Source of the DNA: a virus
Taxonomy: Duplodnaviria; Heunggongvirae; Uroviricota; Caudoviricetes
Virus record (IMG/VR): IMGVR_UViG_2541047887_000002
Length of the DNA: 24,712 nucleotides
Strand: one strand, 5' to 3'
Part shown: positions 11,366-24,397 of the stretch, one piece after another
How the letters are laid out: every line of letters begins with the position of its first letter
Position numbering within the stretch: the stretch's first letter is position 1
The notes under the pieces: model-generated
Databases searched by the model: none
The model's input: only the letters and a program-made list of their open reading frames with translations
What the model was told of the DNA's origin: nothing
Position numbers and translations under genes: made by a program

Positions 11366-13123
11366 TCACAGAATTAACAGGTCCTCATCAGGATCAAGCG
11401 TGGACAGAAAGTCATTCACGCCCCCTCCATTTACCAGAAAGCGGCTCATGGCTGTAAAAAGCGCAACAGGGCCGTCGATTTTGGCTTCCGGCGTGGATTT
11501 ATTCGGGAAGATGTTGTCGTTTTTGTCCGGTTTTACAGTAACGTTAGACATCATCCAGTTCATGACCGGATGATTGCTGTGATGGAAACGCCCGGCATAA
11601 ACCAGTGATTCCGTTTCCTTCATGGCCTCTGACAGATTGCGGACCGTCTGCGGAACCTCCACCAGCGGTATCCCTTCTTCAGCCAGTGCCAGGCTGAACT
11701 GCATTGCGCTCCACGGGTCAAATCCCAGTTCCCTGAGGTTTTCACCGCCAATCCATTCCAGTAAGTCACTTTTTATCTGAGCATGATCGATAACATCACC
11801 ATCCGTCAGGATGAGCTTATCCATCTCCGCCCACTTCCGGTAAAGTTCTGCCTGCTGCCGCGAGCATCGTTCCAGCCGTCCTTCCGGAAGCCAGAATTTA
11901 AAATCAGCATGAACATGTCCGTTATCGGTTCGCCAGAGTTTTGCCGCCGCACAGATATCAATCTTATGAGCAAGGTCGACGCCGACCCACATGGGATATG
12001 TTTTCAGCTCATGTTGTGGAGCAATGTATTCGCACTTCTCCCACTTAATCATATCCATCCAGGCAGATTCGGCAGTGACCCACACATTCATGTGTTTGGT
12101 AAAAAAATTCACCCGCGCAGAGACCTGCTCCTTCGCTTTTTTCGCCAGACGACGCAGATCATCCCAGCGTTTACAGATGCCCAGGCCAGGATTCGCTTTC
12201 TGCCAGACCGTTTCATCAAACGGATCATCTCCCTCATCAAGCGTGTAAATGATCGCAAAGTAAGAGTCGTCTTTTACAGCGCCCTCCACGTCGCTGTTAT
12301 AGCCTCGCAATACCTTGATGGCGTAATCACGCTGCTCGTAACAAATCCCTTCCTTGTTAAAGCCAGCCGTGGTGATACCAAATAACAGGGACTGCAGACG
12401 GGCACCGGTTGCCGTTTCCAGAACGTCCCACACGTCGCGGGTTTTATGTGCATGCAGCTCATCAATAATGGCGCAGTGGATGTTCAGACCGTCCAGGTTG
12501 TTTGCATCCGAGGAAAGCGGTTCAAATTTTGATGCGCTCTGCTCCTGGTAAATCGCCAGCTTGTTGAAATCAAACAACCGCCCGAGTGTCGACCGGGCTT
12601 TTCTGACCATATTTTTGGCGTCTTCAAACACGATTCTGGCCTGGTCACGCGTGGTTGCGGCTGAATACACCTCAGCTCCGCCTTCACTATCTGCCCCCGT
12701 CATATACAGGCCGATACCCGATGACAGTGTTGATTTTGCGTTTTTACGGGCGACTTCGTTGTACGCCGTCCGGAACCGGCGCACCATCACCGGACGTCCG
12801 CTGCCATCGCTGCGCATGACAACTTCCCCGGTTTCTTCATTGACCAGCGGAATGACAAAACCAAAAATATTAATGAGGATAAATACATGCCAGTCCATCA
12901 ACTCAATGGGCTGGCCTGCCAGTACCCCTTTTACATGAGGCACAAATTTGTAGAAATTCAGGATGTGCTGCGCACGGGGTTCACTGAAATAAATCCCCCG
13001 CTTTTCGCCGTACTTCAGATCATCAAGAAAACGCTGGCAGGCCAGGCGGACAAATTCGCCAGCAACAATTTCTCCTGCAACAACACGTTCGGCGTAGCGG
13101 ATCCCGTCAGCCACTTTTGCCAT
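11366..13123 (-). CDS. Terminase large subunit
   Basis: 585-aa ORF with an ATPase-like N-terminal region and nuclease-like C-terminal region. Its start overlaps the small terminase stop (ATGA). Confidence 0.9.
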   Translation of the reverse strand: MAKVADGIRYAERVVAGEIVAGEFVRLACQRFLDDLKYGEKRGIYFSEPRAQHILNFYKFVPHVKGVLAGQPIELMDWHVFILINIFGFVIPLVNEETGEVVMRSDGSGRPVMVRRFRTAYNEVARKNAKSTLSSGIGLYMTGADSEGGAEVYSAATTRDQARIVFEDAKNMVRKARSTLGRLFDFNKLAIYQEQSASKFEPLSSDANNLDGLNIHCAIIDELHAHKTRDVWDVLETATGARLQSLLFGITTAGFNKEGICYEQRDYAIKVLRGYNSDVEGAVKDDSYFAIIYTLDEGDDPFDETVWQKANPGLGICKRWDDLRRLAKKAKEQVSARVNFFTKHMNVWVTAESAWMDMIKWEKCEYIAPQHELKTYPMWVGVDLAHKIDICAAAKLWRTDNGHVHADFKFWLPEGRLERCSRQQAELYRKWAEMDKLILTDGDVIDHAQIKSDLLEWIGGENLRELGFDPWSAMQFSLALAEEGIPLVEVPQTVRNLSEAMKETESLVYAGRFHHSNHPVMNWMMSNVTVKPDKNDNIFPNKSTPEAKIDGPVALFTAMSRFLVNGGGVNDFLSTLDPDEDLLIL

Positions 13124-13605
13124 CAGTCTCTCGCTTTTAAAAGCTCTGCCAGCGGATCAACATTATCCGGTCCGGCGGTATTTACTTTTGCCCGGCTTGC
13201 CGGTGACATACCAAATTCTGCAAGCATCGCCCGGATCCGCTTCCAGGCATCCGCTTTCATCGCAGCAGCCGGGTGTGCCTTAATCAGCACATCACCGTTC
13301 TGCGTTTCCGAGCGGTAGGTGTACCCCTCAACATCGAGTGTTTCGCAGTGATGCCGGTATTCGGTATAGGCTTCCACCAGTAGCTCAAGCGCACGCGCAT
13401 CAAGCTGAGAAATGATCCCTTCCGCATTCAGCTCTTCCGCCATTCGCCTGAACCAGTACTTCCCCTGCGCCCCTAAATGTTGCGGAATTTTAGGGAGACC
13501 TTTTTCATCCTTTTTAGCGGTTTTTTTGAGGTCTTTAACTGGCCGCTTTGAGGGGTTGCCTCGTATCAAATGCAGGCGTGGCGGGATTTTCGGGGGTCCA
13601 GACAT
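13123..13605 (-). CDS. Terminase small subunit (P27-family like)
   Basis: 160-aa basic ORF immediately upstream of the large terminase and translationally coupled to it. Confidence 0.8.
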   Translation of the reverse strand: MSGPPKIPPRLHLIRGNPSKRPVKDLKKTAKKDEKGLPKIPQHLGAQGKYWFRRMAEELNAEGIISQLDARALELLVEAYTEYRHHCETLDVEGYTYRSETQNGDVLIKAHPAAAMKADAWKRIRAMLAEFGMSPASRAKVNTAGPDNVDPLAELLKARD

Positions 13606-13752: not shown

Positions 13753-14103
13753 TCAATTGATGCGTTCGCGCGCTGTTTTTGCTTTATGACAGGGCCAGCA
13801 CAGACTCTGCAGGTTACTGTCTGCATCTGTGCCACCATGAGCTTTCGGAATGATGTGGTCCACAGTTCTGGCTTCAACGGCTCTCCCATTGCGCAGGCAG
13901 TTCTGACACAGATGATTATCACGCTTCAGTATGCGCGCACGTATGGCATCCCATTTCGAGCCATAGCCACGCTGGTGGCGGCTCAGTCCGCGTTGATGCT
14001 TTACCCATCCTTCGCCACGATGTTTATCGCAGTAACCAGAACTGTCTGTGGTTGTACCTGCACATCCACGCTTACGGCAGGCGCGTGGGATTAGTGCTGG
14101 CAT
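13753..14103 (-). CDS. HNH homing-type endonuclease, terminase-associated
   Basis: 116-aa ORF with CxxC...HxxxxH...CxxCH HNH motifs (CQNCLRNG...DHIIPKAHGG...CWPCH). Sits next to the terminase as in HK97-like phages. Confidence 0.85.
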   Translation of the reverse strand: MPALIPRACRKRGCAGTTTDSSGYCDKHRGEGWVKHQRGLSRHQRGYGSKWDAIRARILKRDNHLCQNCLRNGRAVEARTVDHIIPKAHGGTDADSNLQSLCWPCHKAKTARERIN

Positions 14104-16632: not shown

Positions 16633-16704
16633 TGAAGTGGTTTACTGAATTTGGCCACCTGAACAGAGGTGATATGCTCACCTCAGAACAACACAGGTGC
16701 CATA

Positions 16705-18093
<1,389 letters not shown>

Positions 18094-18258: not shown

Positions 18259-18264
18259 GCATGT

Positions 18265-18294
18265 AAAAAGGCCCCAACACATGTGCGTGGGGCC
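18265..18294 (-). terminator. Minus-strand intrinsic terminator-like hairpin
   Basis: Minus strand reads GGCCCCACGCACAUGUGUUGGGGCC followed by UUUUU. Confidence 0.45.
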
Positions 18295-18494
18295 TGAGAG
18301 TATACATGGTTTCAGTCAACTGCATGGTGCCGGGTGCCTCCCGGTGAATTCAGTACCAGCACCTGAATCCGCGATTATCCCATATACCTACTCGCTGATT
18401 GCCCCTCCGCACAGGGGGATTCACCATGCCAGTTTCTTTTAACAAACTCCCCGCAAAACAGACAACTGTCAACCGTCTGAATTGTGAGACATTT

Positions 18495-18534: not shown

Positions 18535-18611
18535 TGGCGCGTTGTACTGGATTCGAACCAGTGACCGATTGCTTAGAAGGCAATTGCTCTGTCCGGTTGA
18601 GCTAACAACGC
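18535..18611 (-). tRNA. tRNA-Arg (anticodon UCU)
   Basis: Hand-folded cloverleaf: acceptor GCGUUGU/ACAACGC, D-stem GCUC/GAGC, anticodon stem AUUGC/GCAAU with loop CUUCUAA, T-loop UUCGAAU, encoded 3' CCA. Confidence 0.75.
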
Positions 18612-18624
18612 AGGGTACAGATAA

Positions 18625-18701
18625 TGGACCGCCATCGAGGACTCGAACCCCGCGCAACCAGCTTCGAAGGCTGGTGCTCTATCCTGATGAGCTAATGGCG
18701 G
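18625..18701 (-). tRNA. tRNA-Arg (anticodon UCG)
   Basis: Hand-folded cloverleaf: acceptor CCGCCAU/AUGGCGG, D-stem GCUC/GAGC, anticodon stem CCAGC/GCUGG with loop CUUCGAA, T-loop UUCGAGU, encoded CCA. The 5' end is uncertain by 1 nt. Confidence 0.65.
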
Positions 18702-18708
18702 TATGTGA

Positions 18709-18784
18709 TGGTGGCCCTTGCTGGATTTGAACCAGCGACCTGGCGATTATGAGTCGCTCGCTCTCACCTCTGAGCTAAAGGGCC
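18709..18784 (-). tRNA. tRNA with anticodon CAU, most likely tRNA-Ile2 (ileX/ileZ-like); elongator Met not excluded
   Basis: Sequence GGCCCUUUAGCUCAG...GACUCAUAAUCGC...GGUUCAAAUCCAGCAAGGGCCACCA closely resembles E. coli ileX as I recall it. Anticodon loop CUCAUAA. Confidence 0.7.
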
Positions 18785-18994: not shown

Positions 18995-19684
18995 TCAATC
19001 TACTTTTGCAACACTTTGCTTTGAAAATGCCGCCTTTTGTTTTGAACGTGTTCTCATTACAAACAATAAAGCCTCACTATCCAGTCGTTGAAAAATGTGT
19101 TTCATTGCAACCCAGTGACGAGTAAATGTTTTGGACCAGTTTTTAGTTGTCACTCCCGCCAGTAATGCCAGCTCCTGGTATTCATAACCTTCCCCACCAA
19201 AAAGTTCTGCTTTTACTGCCTGCGCCGCCAGCCAGATTAATTTTTTCAGGCGTTCCTGCGTTTTCCCTGCAATTTTTCTGGTACCGGATTGAGTATTAAA
19301 TTCATTCCACGCCCACTGTGTTATCGCGATCTGATATTCCCAACAAATACTCCCGCCGTAACACCACAACAACCAGGCTTTATGATGCTCTTCAAGAGAC
19401 AGCAAAGCCCGCCGCCATGATGATGTCGAAAACTCAACCGGGCTGACCAGGGCAATTGATGAGCCATTCGCCAGTGATTGTTTTCCCGGGATTGGTGGAT
19501 TATCCCGCGTTATCATTTTTCCAGTCACTTCATCGCGGTACCGGATTTTTTTTCGCCTGTAACGCCCTGTATCGAACATGGCATTCTCCTGCCAGGCTTC
19601 AAGCTGACCTTTTGTTGCCCCACTCAAATCAGCGGTGGCGATAATGAGCTGCTCACGCACAAACTGTAAATACTGGTTATTCAT
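18995..19684 (-). CDS. Putative late-gene antiterminator (Q-like), assigned by position
   Basis: 229-aa ORF with ATG at 19682-19684 overlapping the RusA stop (ATGA). It lies directly upstream of the terminator, tRNAs and lysis genes. No clear zinc-finger motif, so the identity is tentative. Confidence 0.5.
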   Translation of the reverse strand: MNNQYLQFVREQLIIATADLSGATKGQLEAWQENAMFDTGRYRRKKIRYRDEVTGKMITRDNPPIPGKQSLANGSSIALVSPVEFSTSSWRRALLSLEEHHKAWLLWCYGGSICWEYQIAITQWAWNEFNTQSGTRKIAGKTQERLKKLIWLAAQAVKAELFGGEGYEYQELALLAGVTTKNWSKTFTRHWVAMKHIFQRLDSEALLFVMRTRSKQKAAFSKQSVAKVD

Positions 19685-20046
19685 GCGCACTCCAGTTCTG
19701 TGATTTTTATCCCCAGCCGCCCACCAGGAACGAGCTGACCGCGCACAATATTGATTTCATCAAACTGCTCGTCGTCTATAAGTAGTCCGGCATGCGTCAG
19801 CGCATCCAGTGGTGCCTTCAGGATATTGTCCAGGTCACGACGGCGCTTATCCGGTGGCTCTGCAATAATCTTTATCGCCAGCCTTCCGGACAGGTTTAAT
19901 TTCAGCCGCTGCTGGCGAACAATTAGCGCCACATCACGGCGATAACGCTTTCCGGCTTCCGAGATGAAATACGTATTGCCATGACGTCGCCAGTAGGTAT
20001 TCACCGTCGGCGGGTAAGGCAAAACAAATTCTATGCGTTCAGTCAT
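19681..20046 (-). CDS. rusA: RusA Holliday junction resolvase
   Basis: 121-aa ORF with PYPPTVNTYWRR and DKRRRDLDNILKAPLDALTHAGLLIDD motifs, matching RusA (compare DRRRRDLDNLQKAAFDAL in E. coli RusA). Confidence 0.9.
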   Translation of the reverse strand: MTERIEFVLPYPPTVNTYWRRHGNTYFISEAGKRYRRDVALIVRQQRLKLNLSGRLAIKIIAEPPDKRRRDLDNILKAPLDALTHAGLLIDDEQFDEINIVRGQLVPGGRLGIKITELECA

Positions 20047-21102
20047 TCATGCTTTCCACTTCAGGACACCCGAATTTCTCGCGTGCATTAAAAAACGAAT
20101 CAGCAACAACAGCTGGCTGCCGTGTTTTTCTTCAAAATCTTTTACCCCGGCGTGCAGTTCGTTATGACATTTACGGCACAGCGGAATAACAAACAAATCA
20201 TCAGCCTTTGTTCCCATCCCTCCCAGTCCATGACCAATGATGTGATGCGGATCATCTGCCTGATTACCGCACGTCATGCATTTCTGCGTTTTTACCCAAC
20301 GCGTGTATACAGGCATCTCTTCCCGTTGTGGTTTCTGGCGCTGGAGATACTGAGCCGGTGACTCCGGATCAACGGCAATGCTGACCACCGTCTTTTCCTG
20401 TGGCGGGTTTTGCTGGTGGGCATGAGGCAACGGCGCAAGATTTTTTGTGCGCTGCTTCAGTATGCTGGTGGCGGTCTGCTCTCCCGGTACGATGTCGCTT
20501 TCGCGGTACAAGGAGCGGATTTTTTCCGCACGTAACCCCAGAGAACGACGTAATACTGCCTCCGGAAGCGCGTCCGCCACCTGATTGCAGACCGCCCACC
20601 AGGATAATTCAGCCAGCGACAATTCCCGCTCCTGCGTGCCATTCATTGCATGGCGTATGACGTCAATCATCCATGCTGACAGGTTTTGATGAGCAAGTTG
20701 CCCGAGTGATTCGGATGTCTGGTCACGCAACTGGTTGTCGCAGTGCCAGCACAACACCATCGCGCCGGTACCGTAACGATGTATGACGATTTCACTGTGA
20801 TGATAGTCACCATGAGGCCACTGGCAGGATTTGACATGACGCAACAGCCAGTCAGACAGTGCCCCAGCGCCGCCAGCAGCACGAATCACCCGCTCATCGC
20901 TGAAAAATGGCAGTAATGATTTATCCTCCGCCAGCGGCTGGCGAACGGCAGGGACGACTCCGGACGGCAGACCGCGCATGCTTTTCGGTTCAGGCTCCAC
21001 CAGCACTCGAGGGTTATGAAATACTTGCATGGATTCACAGCCCGGCCTAAGGACCACCAGCCCGAGTTCCGGTACCAGAACAGGTCGAAGTAATACCCGC
21101 AC
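20047..21102 (-). CDS. YdfU-like (DUF968) protein with C-terminal HNH-like Cys/His motif
   Basis: C-terminus reads CMTCG...HHIIGHG...CRKCHNELH. GTG start at 21100-21102 is coupled to the upstream stop with a GGAGG Shine-Dalgarno; an alternative ATG lies at 21030. Same neighbourhood as ydfU in Qin. Confidence 0.7.
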   Translation of the reverse strand: MRVLLRPVLVPELGLVVLRPGCESMQVFHNPRVLVEPEPKSMRGLPSGVVPAVRQPLAEDKSLLPFFSDERVIRAAGGAGALSDWLLRHVKSCQWPHGDYHHSEIVIHRYGTGAMVLCWHCDNQLRDQTSESLGQLAHQNLSAWMIDVIRHAMNGTQERELSLAELSWWAVCNQVADALPEAVLRRSLGLRAEKIRSLYRESDIVPGEQTATSILKQRTKNLAPLPHAHQQNPPQEKTVVSIAVDPESPAQYLQRQKPQREEMPVYTRWVKTQKCMTCGNQADDPHHIIGHGLGGMGTKADDLFVIPLCRKCHNELHAGVKDFEEKHGSQLLLLIRFLMHARNSGVLKWKA

Positions 21103-21103
21103 G

Positions 21104-21376
21104 TTACCTCCAGATGCGTTGCTGGAATGTGCGGGACGGACGCGGTGGGCGTTCAGAGTAAGGAAGCCTGACGGAGATTATCCAGTGACGATAATCGAGG
21201 CTGAGGGCTTTCTTAATCTCGTATCCGCGTCTGCGGTAGTTATGAATTAGCCATTCGGCCTGTTCTTCAGTACATGGTGGGTGTTGGTACCAGTCGGTTT
21301 TAAATGCGTGTGAACGCCGCTCATGCCGGATGGCAAGGTCGGTATCAGAATTGTGAAATTTGGTTTTGTGCGCCAT
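21104..21376 (-). CDS. Hypothetical protein (90 aa)
   Basis: ORF with ATG at 21374-21376, tightly packed upstream of the DUF968 gene. No motif recognised. Confidence 0.5.
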   Translation of the reverse strand: MAHKTKFHNSDTDLAIRHERRSHAFKTDWYQHPPCTEEQAEWLIHNYRRRGYEIKKALSLDYRHWIISVRLPYSERPPRPSRTFQQRIWR

Positions 21377-21448
21377 CTGTTTTCTCTGCTGGCGCAGCAG
21401 GTGTCAGGTGTTCAGGCTGACGTGCGAATTGTAAACCAGAATGCCAGG

Positions 21449-21475
21449 AAAAAACAAAACCCGCCGAAGCGGGTT
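21449..21475 (-). terminator. Intrinsic terminator downstream of hok
   Basis: Minus strand reads AACCCGC-UUCG-GCGGGUU followed by UUGUUUUUU. Confidence 0.6.
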
Positions 21476-21543
21476 AAGTGCGGGTGCGTTGAGGATGCCT
21501 GACACATCAGAGGCGGCGAGGGATTTCTCCCTCGCCAAGTCTC

Positions 21544-21699
21544 TTACTCCTCAGGTTCGTAGACTGTGAAGACAGCGACCTCCGTCTGGCCGGTTCGGAT
21601 TCGTACCTCGCAGAGGTCTTTCCTCGTTACCAGTGCCGTCACTATGACGGTTAAACAGATGACGATCAGGGCGATTAACATCGCCTTTTGCTGCTTCAT
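21544..21699 (-). CDS. hok: Hok-family type I toxin (HokD/RelF-like, 51 aa)
   Basis: MKQQKAMLIALIVICLTVIVTALVTRKDLCEVRIRTGQTEVAVFTVYEPEE is near-identical to E. coli HokD as I recall it. AAGGAG Shine-Dalgarno upstream. Confidence 0.85.
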   Translation of the reverse strand: MKQQKAMLIALIVICLTVIVTALVTRKDLCEVRIRTGQTEVAVFTVYEPEE

Positions 21700-21756
21700 A
21701 GCCTGCTTCTCCTTGCCTTTCGGCACGTAAGAGGCTAACCTAGATTTGCCGTTCAT
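21544..21756 (-). CDS. mok: Mok-like overlapping reading frame (translational coupler for hok)
   Basis: In-frame upstream extension of 70 aa from ATG 21754-21756, as in hok/mok/sok loci. Confidence 0.4.
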   Translation of the reverse strand: MNGKSRLASYVPKGKEKQAMKQQKAMLIALIVICLTVIVTALVTRKDLCEVRIRTGQTEVAVFTVYEPEE

Positions 21757-21952
21757 AGATTGAGCCTCAGATTAATGTTAAGCGTCTTGCAGGACGCGTA
21801 ATGTTAACTGGGGCTTTTCTCTATCTGCCTTTGGTGTTCATGCCTGAGGCAGATAGCCTCAAGCACCCGCAGCAATTCTACTTAAGTTAGATAAGCTTTT
21901 CTATGGTATTCTCTCAGCGTCCCGTAAATACAGTCTCGGCTCATCATTTTTA

Positions 21953-23665: not shown

Positions 23666-24104
23666 GCTCCTCTCCTTTGATGCGAATGCCAGCGACGCGT
23701 AATGCGTGTTCTAGGTCAATCAGGTAAAGCCAACTGCCATTTTCTTTAGGTATCATGACATGTCGCTCATCTGCATTTATCGGGTGTCCATATCGAAGGT
23801 CGTAGCGAGTCGGTAATTGAACTTCCCGCGCTTCCAGTTCAGCAATACGCTTGCTCCCATCAGAGATAACGCCTTCGTAATACTCACGCTGCTCGTTGAG
23901 TTGTGATTTTGCTTCTTCCAGTCCATCCAGCAAATCAGCGATAATATCCGCTTCCCGATGACGGATGTGACGCTTAAACGCAGCAAGAGCCGCATCACAA
24001 TCCCGTTCAGCATTTGGGCTGTCCGGGATAGCCTGATACCACGCCAGCGTCGACTGATAGTTTTGTGCTGCCTCACGAAGCGCCTCATAGTTAACCTCTC
24101 TCAT
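23643..24104 (-). CDS. Hypothetical nin-region protein (153 aa)
   Basis: ORF overlapping its upstream neighbour by 4 nt. Confidence 0.6.
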   Translation of the reverse strand: MREVNYEALREAAQNYQSTLAWYQAIPDSPNAERDCDAALAAFKRHIRHREADIIADLLDGLEEAKSQLNEQREYYEGVISDGSKRIAELEAREVQLPTRYDLRYGHPINADERHVMIPKENGSWLYLIDLEHALRVAGIRIKGEEHGNKTRG

Positions 24105-24397
24105 TGAGCCACCTCCTGATAAATCACCGCATGCCCCAGTTTCTCCGCCAGTGCCAGCTCTGCCTTAGCGCCCGCTGACCGCTGCCAGCCATTCAGCATG
24201 TAAATCGCATCCACACAACGAATCATTGCCATGCAAATATCCATGTAGTGCGGCTGTGTCAGCCCGTCCGGAAGTACTGCCGGGTTTAAGACGGTATGCC
24301 CTTCCCGTTTCAGTTCCTCTTCCACCTTGTGAAATGCCTCACGGTTGAAATTTTCATATCCCGTCATTGGACCGGCAATATAAACTCTCACCCTCAC
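24101..24397 (-). CDS. DUF4406-like protein (nucleoside 2-deoxyribosyltransferase-like fold)
   Basis: N-terminal VYIAGPMTG motif typical of this small phage family. Overlaps its upstream neighbour by 4 nt. Confidence 0.6.
   Translation of the reverse strand: MRVRVYIAGPMTGYENFNREAFHKVEEELKREGHTVLNPAVLPDGLTQPHYMDICMAMIRCVDAIYMLNGWQRSAGAKAELALAEKLGHAVIYQEVAQ

What the first reader, a model, noticed from the sequence alone, without database searches (positions are those of the whole stretch)
20047..21102. DUF968/YdfU-like protein with HNH-like metal-binding C-terminus next to RusA
The C-terminal 60 residues carry a CxxC...HH...GHG...CxxCH arrangement that looks like an HNH/zinc-ribbon nuclease, attached to a 280-aa N-terminal region of unknown function. 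It is coupled upstream of the RusA resolvase and the antiterminator. Such proteins are poorly characterised and could be a recombination or replication accessory nuclease. The start codon is ambiguous: GTG at 21102 or ATG at 21030.
Basis: partly seen in the sequence, partly recalled or inferred. Interest (0 to 1): 0.4.

Follow-up and report, generated by a model that had tools for sequence, protein, structure and literature searches.

The report
Known prophage YdfU-family HNH nuclease gene
This gene encodes an ordinary, very common E. coli prophage protein of the YdfU/DUF968 family, whose tail end was already classed in 2017 as a zinc-stabilised DNA-cutting (HNH) domain, though nobody has yet shown by experiment what the protein does.

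Summary
The ORF is real: 20047..21102, minus strand, 351 aa. The Cys/His motif is there as described (C275xxC278…H286H287…GH291G…C309xxC312H313…H317).

It is a Pfam DUF968 protein (E=9e-64) and is 80% identical to E. coli K-12 YdfU. RefSeq already annotates an identical copy, and 4578 of 5426 complete E. coli genomes carry similar DNA. A 2017 classification had placed DUF968 in the His-Me/HNH superfamily and noted the RusA and Q neighbours.

What this work adds:
- **Conservation.** The catalytic and zinc residues are conserved across about 75 divergent representatives.
- **Closest characterised relative.** By sequence this is S. aureus phage ΦNM1 Gp16, a RecA-stimulated nickase (93.5% profile probability).
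- **Start codon.** The start is the GTG at 21102.
- **N-terminal domain.** The N-terminal 227 residues contain a second conserved four-ligand zinc site, on what looks like a catalytically dead HNH-like finger.
- **Neighbours.** A junction resolvase is adjacent in 6 of 16 contexts, including one of a different fold.

The most likely role is an accessory early-gene nickase acting on recombination or replication intermediates. That role is inferred, not shown. Interest is low to moderate.

The parts
20047..21102 (-). DUF968/YdfU-family CDS, 351 aa, GTG start, TGA stop at 20047-20049
   Evidence: ORF list. Pfam DUF968 E=9e-64 and HNHc_6 E=1.5e-7. PHROG 96 E=4e-165. RefSeq WP_021517578.1 in an identical copy. 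80% identity to K-12 YdfU.
21107..21111 (-). Shine-Dalgarno GGAGG, 4 nt upstream of the GTG start
   Evidence: Sequence. Conserved with the GTG in 73 of 75 close relatives.
20422..21102 (-). N-terminal domain, residues 1-227; residues 1-159 are not covered by any Pfam model
20725..20826 (-). Second predicted zinc site and beta-beta-alpha knuckle, residues 93-126 (C93, H101, C118, C121, D122); no conserved catalytic His
   Evidence: In 78 representatives: C93 75/78, C118 75/78, position 101 His48/Cys24, position 121 Cys41/His35. Pairs at (101,121): (H,C) 36, (C,H) 24, (H,H) 11, (C,C) 0. Strands 105-110 and 113-118 then helix 119-125. Position 108 is His in only 5 of 37.
20380..20421 (-). Disordered, length-variable interdomain linker, residues 228-241
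   Evidence: pLDDT below 50 for 228-241. Residues 221-229 are gaps in 30-32 of 37 homologues.
20050..20379 (-). C-terminal His-Me (HNH) nuclease domain, residues 242-351
20152..20280 (-). HNH core, residues 275-317: zinc ligands C275/C278/C309/C312; catalytic set H286, H287, D302, H313, H317
   Evidence: Conservation counts. Residue-by-residue correspondence to the mutated Gp16 residues (PMC12817073).
19681..20046 (-). RusA Holliday-junction resolvase; its ATG directly abuts the DUF968 stop
   Evidence: PF05866 E=8e-16. PHROG 34. Adjacent in 76 of 80 close viral loci.
18995..19690 (-). Late-gene antiterminator Q, overlapping the RusA 3' end by 10 nt
   Evidence: PF06323 E=8.5e-91. The Q allele varies among relatives; this type is present in 23 of 80.
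21104..21376 (-). Upstream 90-aa ORF of unknown function; its TAA stop lies 1 nt before the DUF968 GTG
   Evidence: PHROG 1212, unknown function. Detected in 75 of 80 close loci. Not related to K-12 Rem. Not conserved in distant contexts.

Best explanation
The gene encodes a two-domain accessory DNA nuclease of the lambdoid 'nin' region, a member of the YdfU/DUF968 family.

Shown or strongly supported:
- The C-terminal ~110 residues form a zinc-stabilised beta-beta-alpha-metal (HNH) domain.
- All four structural zinc ligands are present (C275, C278, C309, C312).
- The full catalytic set is present: H287 as the likely general base, H286/H313/H317 as metal ligands, and D302 in the 'N' position.
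- The gene is packed with no spacer between a small upstream ORF and RusA-Q, at the end of the early operon.

Inferred:
- The gene is co-translated with its neighbours as a delayed-early gene.
- The protein nicks DNA by the one-metal HNH mechanism. This follows its closest characterised relatives, PhiNM1 Gp16 (a nickase stimulated by RecA) and P1 Ref (a RecA-dependent D-loop nickase).
- Its substrates are branched recombination or replication intermediates. Its products feed the adjacent junction resolvase, which helps recombination-dependent phage replication before Q switches on late genes.
- The N-terminal 227 residues do not cut. They are built around a second zinc knuckle that looks like an HNH finger without catalytic residues, and they most likely provide targeting to a DNA structure or a partner protein.
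- The function is accessory, not essential.
For: - Active site: D302 75/75, H287 72/75, H286 71/75, H313 69/75, H317 67/75. 52 of 75 representatives, including this protein, keep both the catalytic and the zinc sets.
- Homology to a characterised enzyme: the C-domain profile matches PhiNM1 Gp16 at 93.5% probability, E=2e-7, over 67 columns. Gp16 in turn hits Pfam DUF968 above threshold, 29.1 against 27.8 bits.
- What is shown for Gp16: it is early-expressed, binds dsDNA, nicks plasmid DNA, binds RecA, and RecA enhances its cleavage. Zinc-ligand mutants lose activity or toxicity (PMC12817073).
- What is shown for Ref: it is a RecA-dependent HNH nickase that acts on D-loops (abstracts of PMC3973344 and PMC4330346).
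- Context, 16 distinct settings: a resolvase is immediately adjacent in 6. These are RusA on either side in the window clade, mEp390, Klebsiella phi6.3, Pantoea AH07 and Serratia BZS1, plus a DUF1064/PHROG-190 resolvase of a different fold in L089. A late regulator (Q, Antiterm, DUF1133 or Lpa) follows in about 11 of 16.
- Equivalent slot: DLP12 has ybcO-rusA-ylcG-quuD, so a lone HNH sits in the same place.
- Published hypothesis: Jablonska et al. 2017 proposed a recombination role for this group.
Against: - No member of DUF968 has been tested biochemically or genetically for this role. Everything about substrate, RecA involvement and cooperation with RusA is by analogy.
- Gp16 and Ref have different N-terminal parts (NinB-like, and basic disordered), so partner or substrate choice may not carry over.
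- RusA adjacency is absent in 9-10 of 16 contexts, including K-12 Qin itself.
- P1 pdcB knock-down and insertion show no plaque defect. However, the PdcB clade has lost the catalytic histidines, so this says little about active members.
- pTM 0.56 means the relative position of the two domains is not predicted.
Confidence: 0.5

Rival explanations
1. Host-directed early nuclease. The protein mainly damages or condenses host DNA to shut down host replication and bias the cell towards phage production, as reported for PhiNM1 Gp16, rather than processing phage recombination intermediates.
For: Gp16, the closest characterised sequence relative of the C-domain, inhibits host growth, condenses the nucleoid and suppresses host replication. 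The gene sits in the early operon. The catalytic site is intact.
Against: The family is kept in thousands of resident prophages (4578 of 5426 E. coli genomes) and in cryptic Qin, with no conserved neighbouring inhibitor gene. The recurring pairing with junction resolvases of two different folds points to phage DNA metabolism. The two roles do not exclude each other.
Confidence: 0.2
2. Non-catalytic zinc-finger DNA-binding or regulatory protein. Both beta-beta-alpha fingers serve only to bind DNA or a partner, for example to help the adjacent late-gene regulator.
For: The gene lies immediately upstream of Q, Antiterm or Lpa in most contexts. Some records label relatives as regulators or Q. The P1 PdcB-like clade has lost H286/H287/H313/H317 but keeps the zinc cysteines. 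The N-domain finger lacks catalytic residues.
Against: In this protein and in 67 of 75 representatives the complete H-H-D-H-H set is conserved, including in a clade that lost the zinc cysteines. That pattern is what selection for catalysis produces. No HTH or known regulator domain was found.
Confidence: 0.08
3. Packaging helper: an HNH endonuclease that works with terminase to cut concatemers, like HK97 gp74.
For: Phage HNH proteins often have this role (introduction of PMC12817073). In P1, pdcB lies about 600 bp upstream of pacA.
Against: This prophage has a separate canonical HNH (PF01844, E=2e-16) at 13753..14103, directly beside the Terminase_4 small subunit. The DUF968 gene is about 6 kb away in the early operon. 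L085 likewise has both. P1 pdcB is dispensable while pacA and pacB are essential.
Confidence: 0.04
4. Selfish or conflict element: a free-standing homing endonuclease, or a prophage-encoded defence or exclusion nuclease.
For: HNH domains are common in homing endonucleases and defence systems. Lambdoid nin regions are mosaic, and the Q allele next to the module is swapped between relatives.
Against: No PADLOC match. No intron, intein or typical homing DNA-binding modules. The gene holds the same operon position across Escherichia, Klebsiella, Pantoea, Serratia, Salmonella, Vibrio and P1-like elements. It is co-oriented and abutting inside the early lytic operon rather than being a separately promoted moron.
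Confidence: 0.06

Closest known systems
E. coli K-12 YdfU (Qin prophage), Pfam DUF968 PF06147; His-Me finger group 7 of Jablonska et al. 2017
   Same: 80% identical over the full length. Same Pfam family. Same hok-...-YdfU-Q region of a Qin-like prophage. Already classified as a His-Me finger with RusA and Q neighbours noted.
   Different: K-12 Qin has no RusA between ydfU and the Q gene, and its upstream gene rem is unrelated to the 90-aa ORF here. Position 312 is His in YdfU and Cys here.
S. aureus phage PhiNM1 Gp16 (Pfam HNHc_6 PF16784), a RecA-stimulated nickase
   Same: The C-terminal HNH domains are homologous: hhalign 93.5%, E=2e-7, with reciprocal Pfam cross-hits. Ligand-for-ligand correspondence: C278=C148, H287=H157, C309=C181, C312=H184, H313=H185, H317=H189. 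Both are early genes of temperate phages that also encode RusA.
   Different: Gp16's N-terminal domain is NinB/Orf-like. The N-domain here matches only HNHc_6 profile positions 119-184 and shows no NinB similarity. RecA binding is untested here.
Bacteriophage P1 Ref (PDB 3PLW, Pfam RecA_dep_nuc PF16786)
   Different: No Pfam RecA_dep_nuc hit. Ref has a 76-residue basic disordered N-terminus instead of a 227-residue folded domain (abstract of PMC4330346). Different genome position in P1, which separately carries the DUF968 homologue PdcB.
DLP12/phage 82 YbcO (PDB 3G27, Pfam PF07102/DUF1364)
   Different: YbcO is 96 aa, a lone HNH domain with no equivalent of the N-terminal 227 residues.
Lambda NinG/Rap junction-specific endonuclease (PF05766)
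   Same: A His-Me finger nuclease in the nin region a few genes upstream of Q. It is the functional analogy used in the literature.
   Different: No detectable sequence relationship beyond a CxxC: hhalign 8.5% and no Pfam hit. It is a different His-Me group (24 against 7).

Membership tests
Pfam DUF968 (PF06147) / YdfU family | Match to the family HMM above the gathering score | tested here: met
   215 bits against a cutoff of 27.8, E=9.1e-64, residues 160-343 covering profile positions 1-169 of 171. 80% identity to K-12 YdfU.
Pfam DUF968 (PF06147) / YdfU family | Full-length architecture shared with family members (N-terminal domain, linker, C-terminal HNH) | tested here: met
   PHROG 96 aligned over 1-348 against profile 1-334 of 334. 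37 full-length representatives align end to end.
His-Me finger / HNH nuclease superfamily | Beta-beta-alpha-metal fold | tested here: met
His-Me finger / HNH nuclease superfamily | Catalytic His at the end of beta1 and metal-binding His/Asn/Asp in the helix | tested here: met
   H287 72/75, H286 71/75, D302 75/75, H313 69/75, H317 67/75.
His-Me finger / HNH nuclease superfamily | Metal-dependent nuclease activity | not testable with these tools
   Needs purified protein. No experimental report was found for any DUF968 member.
Pfam HNHc_6 (PF16784; PhiNM1 Gp16 type) | HNH module matching the family HMM | tested here: met
   31.7 bits against a cutoff of 26.6, E=1.5e-7, but only profile positions 119-184 of 204. 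hhalign to Gp16 93.5%.
Pfam HNHc_6 (PF16784; PhiNM1 Gp16 type) | N-terminal NinB/Orf-like domain | tested here: not met
RecA-dependent nuclease Ref (PF16786) | Match to the family HMM | tested here: not met
RecA-dependent nuclease Ref (PF16786) | Nuclease activity that depends on RecA filaments | not testable with these tools
   Requires biochemistry or an interaction assay.
NinG/Rap (PF05766) | Sequence homology to lambda Rap | tested here: not met
   No Pfam hit. hhalign probability 8.5% over 13 columns.
Terminase-associated HNH (HK97 gp74 type) | Gene adjacent to the terminase genes | tested here: not met
   A different HNH (PF01844) at 13753..14103 holds that position, next to Terminase_4 at 13123..13605.
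Known anti-phage defence systems (PADLOC) | Match to any defence-system protein model | tested here: not met
   No families at E<=0.01 for the protein or its two neighbours.

The most novel reading that the evidence does not exclude
DUF968 proteins are tandem His-Me finger enzymes. A dead N-terminal HNH-like zinc finger acts as a built-in pseudo-dimer partner or structure sensor, restricting the live C-terminal HNH to single-strand nicks at RecA-made D-loops or stalled forks. These proteins would then form a two-step processing pair with whichever junction resolvase (RusA or the DUF1064 type) sits next to them. That would make them a second, very widespread class of RecA- or structure-directed phage nickase besides Ref and Gp16.
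Probability: 0.15. Interest if true: 0.55.

Novelty: already known. Interest (0 to 1): 0.22.

Why it matters
In itself the finding is routine. The gene is annotated, near-ubiquitous in E. coli prophages, and its HNH nature and RusA/Q neighbourhood were published in 2017.

The remaining value is that a protein family present in about 85% of complete E. coli genomes still has no experimentally defined function. This analysis gives a concrete route to one:
- a characterised homologue, Gp16, whose mutated residues map one-to-one onto this protein;
- a predicted second zinc site;
- clades that have naturally lost either the catalytic or the zinc residues;
- a recurring resolvase partner.

If the RecA- or structure-directed nickase idea holds, it would clarify how lambdoid phages lacking Rap handle recombination intermediates. 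It might also yield another programmable nickase like Ref.

Tried and rejected
- NCBIfam gave no model for the protein, and PADLOC gave no hit.
- The PDB sequence search gave only weak hits: YbcO E=0.38 and McrA E=1.1.
- The first homologue search returned only relatives at least 88% identical (nearly all >=92%), useless for conservation. The 50%-clustered search was used instead.
- The search for related loci failed with the diverse alignment. With a narrower alignment it returned only 83-99% identical E. coli loci. These served for start-codon and synteny checks only.
- Internal duplication test: hhalign of the N-terminal zinc region against the C-domain aligned them in the expected register, but it was not significant (E=0.036, probability 1.4%). 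A duplication origin is therefore not claimed.
- A permissive Pfam scan of the N-domain found nothing relevant.
- The AFDB library was unavailable. Foldseek of the N-domain against BFVD gave no significant match, best E=0.11.
- Search for a conserved small partner or immunity ORF upstream: the 90-aa ORF is unrelated to K-12 Rem and to the upstream ORFs of distant relatives. Only DUF4406 recurs. The idea was rejected.
- N-domain fusions to tail-fibre or J proteins were judged prophage-deletion or assembly chimeras, not real architectures.
- The literature search for ydfU/ybcO was swamped by YBCO superconductor papers.

Full report

Yes. The window has an ORF at 20047..21102 on the minus strand: 351 aa with a GTG start. 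Its translation carries C275-x2-C278, H286-H287, G290-H291-G292, C309-x2-C312-H313 and H317.

The match is far beyond chance:
- Pfam DUF968: E=9.1e-64, 215 bits against a 27.8-bit cutoff.
- HNHc_6: E=1.5e-7, above its cutoff.
- PHROG 96 "HNH endonuclease": E=3.8e-165 over the full length.

The neighbours are as stated. RusA (19681..20046) starts on the base after the DUF968 stop codon. The Q antiterminator (18995..19690) overlaps the RusA end by 10 nt. A 90-aa ORF (21104..21376) ends 1 nt before the DUF968 start.

**2. Start codon**

The start is the GTG at 21102.
- In 75/75 close relatives the equivalent codon is GTG, and in 73 of them a GGAGG lies 4 nt upstream.
- Residues 1-24 are conserved out to P1 PdcB and Vibrio phage proteins, which start at the same aligned position.
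- Those residues form confident beta-strands in the models.
- RefSeq annotates the 351-aa form.

**3. What it is, and how well known**

The window is an E. coli lambdoid prophage with HK97-type structural genes and a Qin-like early region. It is 100% identical to strain M1/5 apart from an IS insertion.

The protein is 80% identical to K-12 YdfU. RefSeq annotates an identical copy as WP_021517578.1, "DUF968 domain-containing protein". DNA similar to this region occurs in 4578 of 5426 complete E. coli genomes and in 175 phage records, from Escherichia to Vibrio and P1.

Jablonska et al. 2017 (PMC5714182) had already done three things:
- They placed DUF968 with YbcO/DUF1364 in His-Me finger group 7.
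- They listed RusA and Q as typical neighbours.
- They proposed a recombination role similar to NinG.

No experimental work on any DUF968 member was found. The exception is that P1 pdcB is dispensable for plaque formation.

**4.

*Conservation.* A search of the 50%-clustered library found 2155 representatives. Among the 75 listed representatives that carry the C-domain:

| Position | Conserved |
|---|---|
| D302 | 75/75 |
| H287 | 72/75 |
| H286 | 71/75 |
| H313 | 69/75 |
| H317 | 67/75 |
| C275 | 71/75 |
| C309 | 66/75 |
| C278 | 62/75 |
| 312 (Cys or His) | 62/75 |

Neither test refutes the interpretation.

**5. Natural variants**

The per-sequence table shows two informative clades.
- A P1 PdcB-like clade has lost H286/H287/H313/H317 but keeps all four zinc cysteines. 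It is probably inactive, so the non-essentiality of pdcB says little about active members.
- A Vibrio-like clade has lost C278/C309/C312 but keeps the full catalytic set.

Overall, 52 of 75 representatives keep both sets, 15 keep only the catalytic set, 5 keep only the zinc set, and 3 keep neither. The window protein keeps both.

**6. Closest characterised relatives**

Profile comparison of the C-domain gives the following:

| Comparator | hhalign probability |
|---|---|
| S. aureus phage ΦNM1 Gp16 | 93.5% (E=2e-7, 67 columns) |
| YbcO | 79.6% |
| P1 Ref | 70.5% |
| λ NinG/Rap | 8.5% |

Gp16 is an HNHc_6 protein and itself hits Pfam DUF968 above threshold. Residues correspond one-to-one: C278=C148, H287=H157, C309=C181, C312=H184, H313=H185, H317=H189.

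Gp16 has been shown to be early-expressed, to bind dsDNA, to nick and then linearise plasmid DNA, and to bind RecA, which enhances its cleavage. It also promotes phage replication, and its zinc-ligand mutants are inactive (PMC12817073). Ref is a RecA-dependent nickase of D-loops.

**7. The N-terminal two-thirds**

Pfam has no model for residues 1-159. A separate model of residues 1-227 is confident: pLDDT 92.2 and pTM 0.80. It has a beta-hairpin (105-110, 113-118) followed by a helix (119-125).

The region carries a conserved four-ligand site. In 78 representatives: C93 75/78, C118 75/78, position 101 His48/Cys24, position 121 Cys41/His35. Positions 101 and 121 swap reciprocally: (H,C) 36, (C,H) 24, (H,H) 11 and never (C,C). 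That fits one shared metal site, although relatedness among the sequences inflates such counts.

I read this as a second, catalytically dead HNH-like zinc finger, with moderate confidence only. The N-versus-C profile comparison is not significant, and Foldseek against viral structures found nothing. The 2017 paper does not mention such a domain.

The linker (228-241) is disordered and variable in length. A pTM of 0.56 means the relative orientation of the two domains is unknown.

**8. Genomic context**

Among 80 close viral loci, the orf90-DUF968-RusA block is nearly fixed: RusA is adjacent in 76. The Q allele varies, and this window's type is present in only 23.

Across 16 distinct contexts:
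- A junction resolvase is immediately adjacent in 6. RusA lies downstream in the window clade and Serratia BZS1. It lies upstream in mEp390, Klebsiella phi6.3 and Pantoea AH07. L089 has a resolvase of a different fold (DUF1064/PHROG 190) in the downstream slot.
- ST64B has RusA one gene away.
- K-12 Qin, SfIV, P1-like elements, Vibrio phage Her and others have no resolvase next to the gene.

The more constant feature is position. The gene sits at the end of the early operon, directly or nearly directly upstream of the late regulator (Q, Antiterm, DUF1133 or Lpa) in about 11 of 16 contexts. DLP12 carries ybcO-rusA-ylcG-quuD, so a lone HNH holds the same slot.

**9. Most likely mechanism**

*Shown or strongly supported:* a zinc-stabilised HNH domain with a complete active site, encoded in a tightly packed early-operon block with RusA and Q.

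*Inferred:*
- The protein nicks DNA by the one-metal HNH mechanism.
- It acts on branched recombination or replication intermediates, possibly with RecA.
- It feeds the adjacent resolvase.
- The N-domain targets rather than cuts.
- The function is accessory.

My confidence is about 0.9 for family and fold, and about 0.5 for the mechanism as a whole.

**10. Rivals**

- **Host-directed early nuclease like Gp16 (0.2).** This is not mutually exclusive with the main reading.
- **Non-catalytic DNA-binding or regulatory protein (0.08).** The conserved catalytic set argues against it.
- **Packaging helper (0.04).** This prophage has a separate PF01844 HNH next to the terminase.
- **Homing or defence element (0.06).** There is no PADLOC hit, and the operon position is stable across genera.

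**11. Verdict**

This is an ordinary member of a known, annotated, very common family. Interest is low to moderate. It comes only from the family's lack of experimental characterisation, plus the new, testable leads: homology to Gp16, a second zinc finger, and resolvase partners of two folds.

Noticed in passing
window 16669-17852 (+): Two overlapping-frame ORFs (112 aa and 272 aa, the latter an IS3-type transposase orfB) form an IS insertion between the lysis genes and the tRNA cluster. The otherwise 100% identical prophage of strain M1/5 lacks it: the window matches in two pieces with 94% coverage. Strain MSB1_4E has an 'IS3-like element ISEc52' under its match.
   Followed up: partly
window 18535-18784 (-): Cluster of three phage tRNAs just downstream of Q: Arg(tct), Arg(tcg) and a CAT-anticodon tRNA. 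ARAGORN calls the last one Met, but RefSeq annotates it as tRNA-Ile.
   Followed up: no
window 18259-18458 (-): Rfam hit to the sRNA family STnc100 (140 bits, E=3e-31), next to the tRNA cluster in the region between Q and the lysis genes.
   Followed up: no
window 21544-21868 (-): A hok/sok type I toxin-antitoxin locus about 170 nt upstream of the 90-aa ORF: Hok/Gef PF01848 E=6e-22, and sok RNA RF01794 at 112 bits.
   Followed up: no
window 13753-14103 (-) and 13123-13605 (-): A separate canonical HNH endonuclease (PF01844, E=2e-16) sits next to a Terminase_4 (P27-family) small subunit, the usual packaging-associated HNH arrangement. The prophage therefore encodes two unrelated HNH proteins.
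   Followed up: yes
L002 3905-4948 (P1 pdcB); P0208, P0234, P0202, P0225: The P1 PdcB-like clade of DUF968 has replaced the catalytic histidines (286/287/313/317) while keeping all four zinc cysteines. It is probably a pseudo-nuclease, which weakens the relevance of the 'pdcB is non-essential' data.
   Followed up: partly
P0147, P0176, P0178, P0146, P0227 (database proteins): Proteins whose first 115-225 residues are the DUF968 N-domain, fused to phage tail-fibre, tail-collar or tip-attachment protein J domains. They are most likely products of prophage internal deletions or misassemblies, not functional architectures.
   Followed up: partly
P0265 (database protein, 282 aa): An HTH_36 + Phg_2220_C (phage replication-protein C-terminus) region fused to the DUF968-type HNH C-domain. 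This suggests the HNH module is swapped between different N-terminal targeting domains.
   Followed up: no
L089 1112-1450: In a distant relative's locus the gene after DUF968 is a DUF1064/PHROG-190 'Holliday junction resolvase' (E=8.5e-24). It stands in the place RusA holds here and is followed by an Antiterm-family regulator.
   Followed up: yes
window 24101-24397 (-); L004 3642-3932; L085 3717-4007: A DUF4406 (nucleoside 2-deoxyribosyltransferase-like) gene recurs near DUF968. It is directly upstream in Vibrio phage Her and in L085 (53% identical to the window's copy), and about 3 kb upstream here.
   Followed up: partly
L100 1971-2925 (Salmonella phage ST64B sb47/sb48): The DUF968 homologue is annotated as two CDS, and the tblastn match comes in two pieces. 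The cause is a frameshift, either real or a sequencing error.
   Followed up: no
window 21323-21502 (+): A 59-aa ORF antisense to the start of the 90-aa ORF is annotated as a hypothetical protein in RefSeq (WP_001112736.1 in M1/5). It looks like a spurious call.
   Followed up: no
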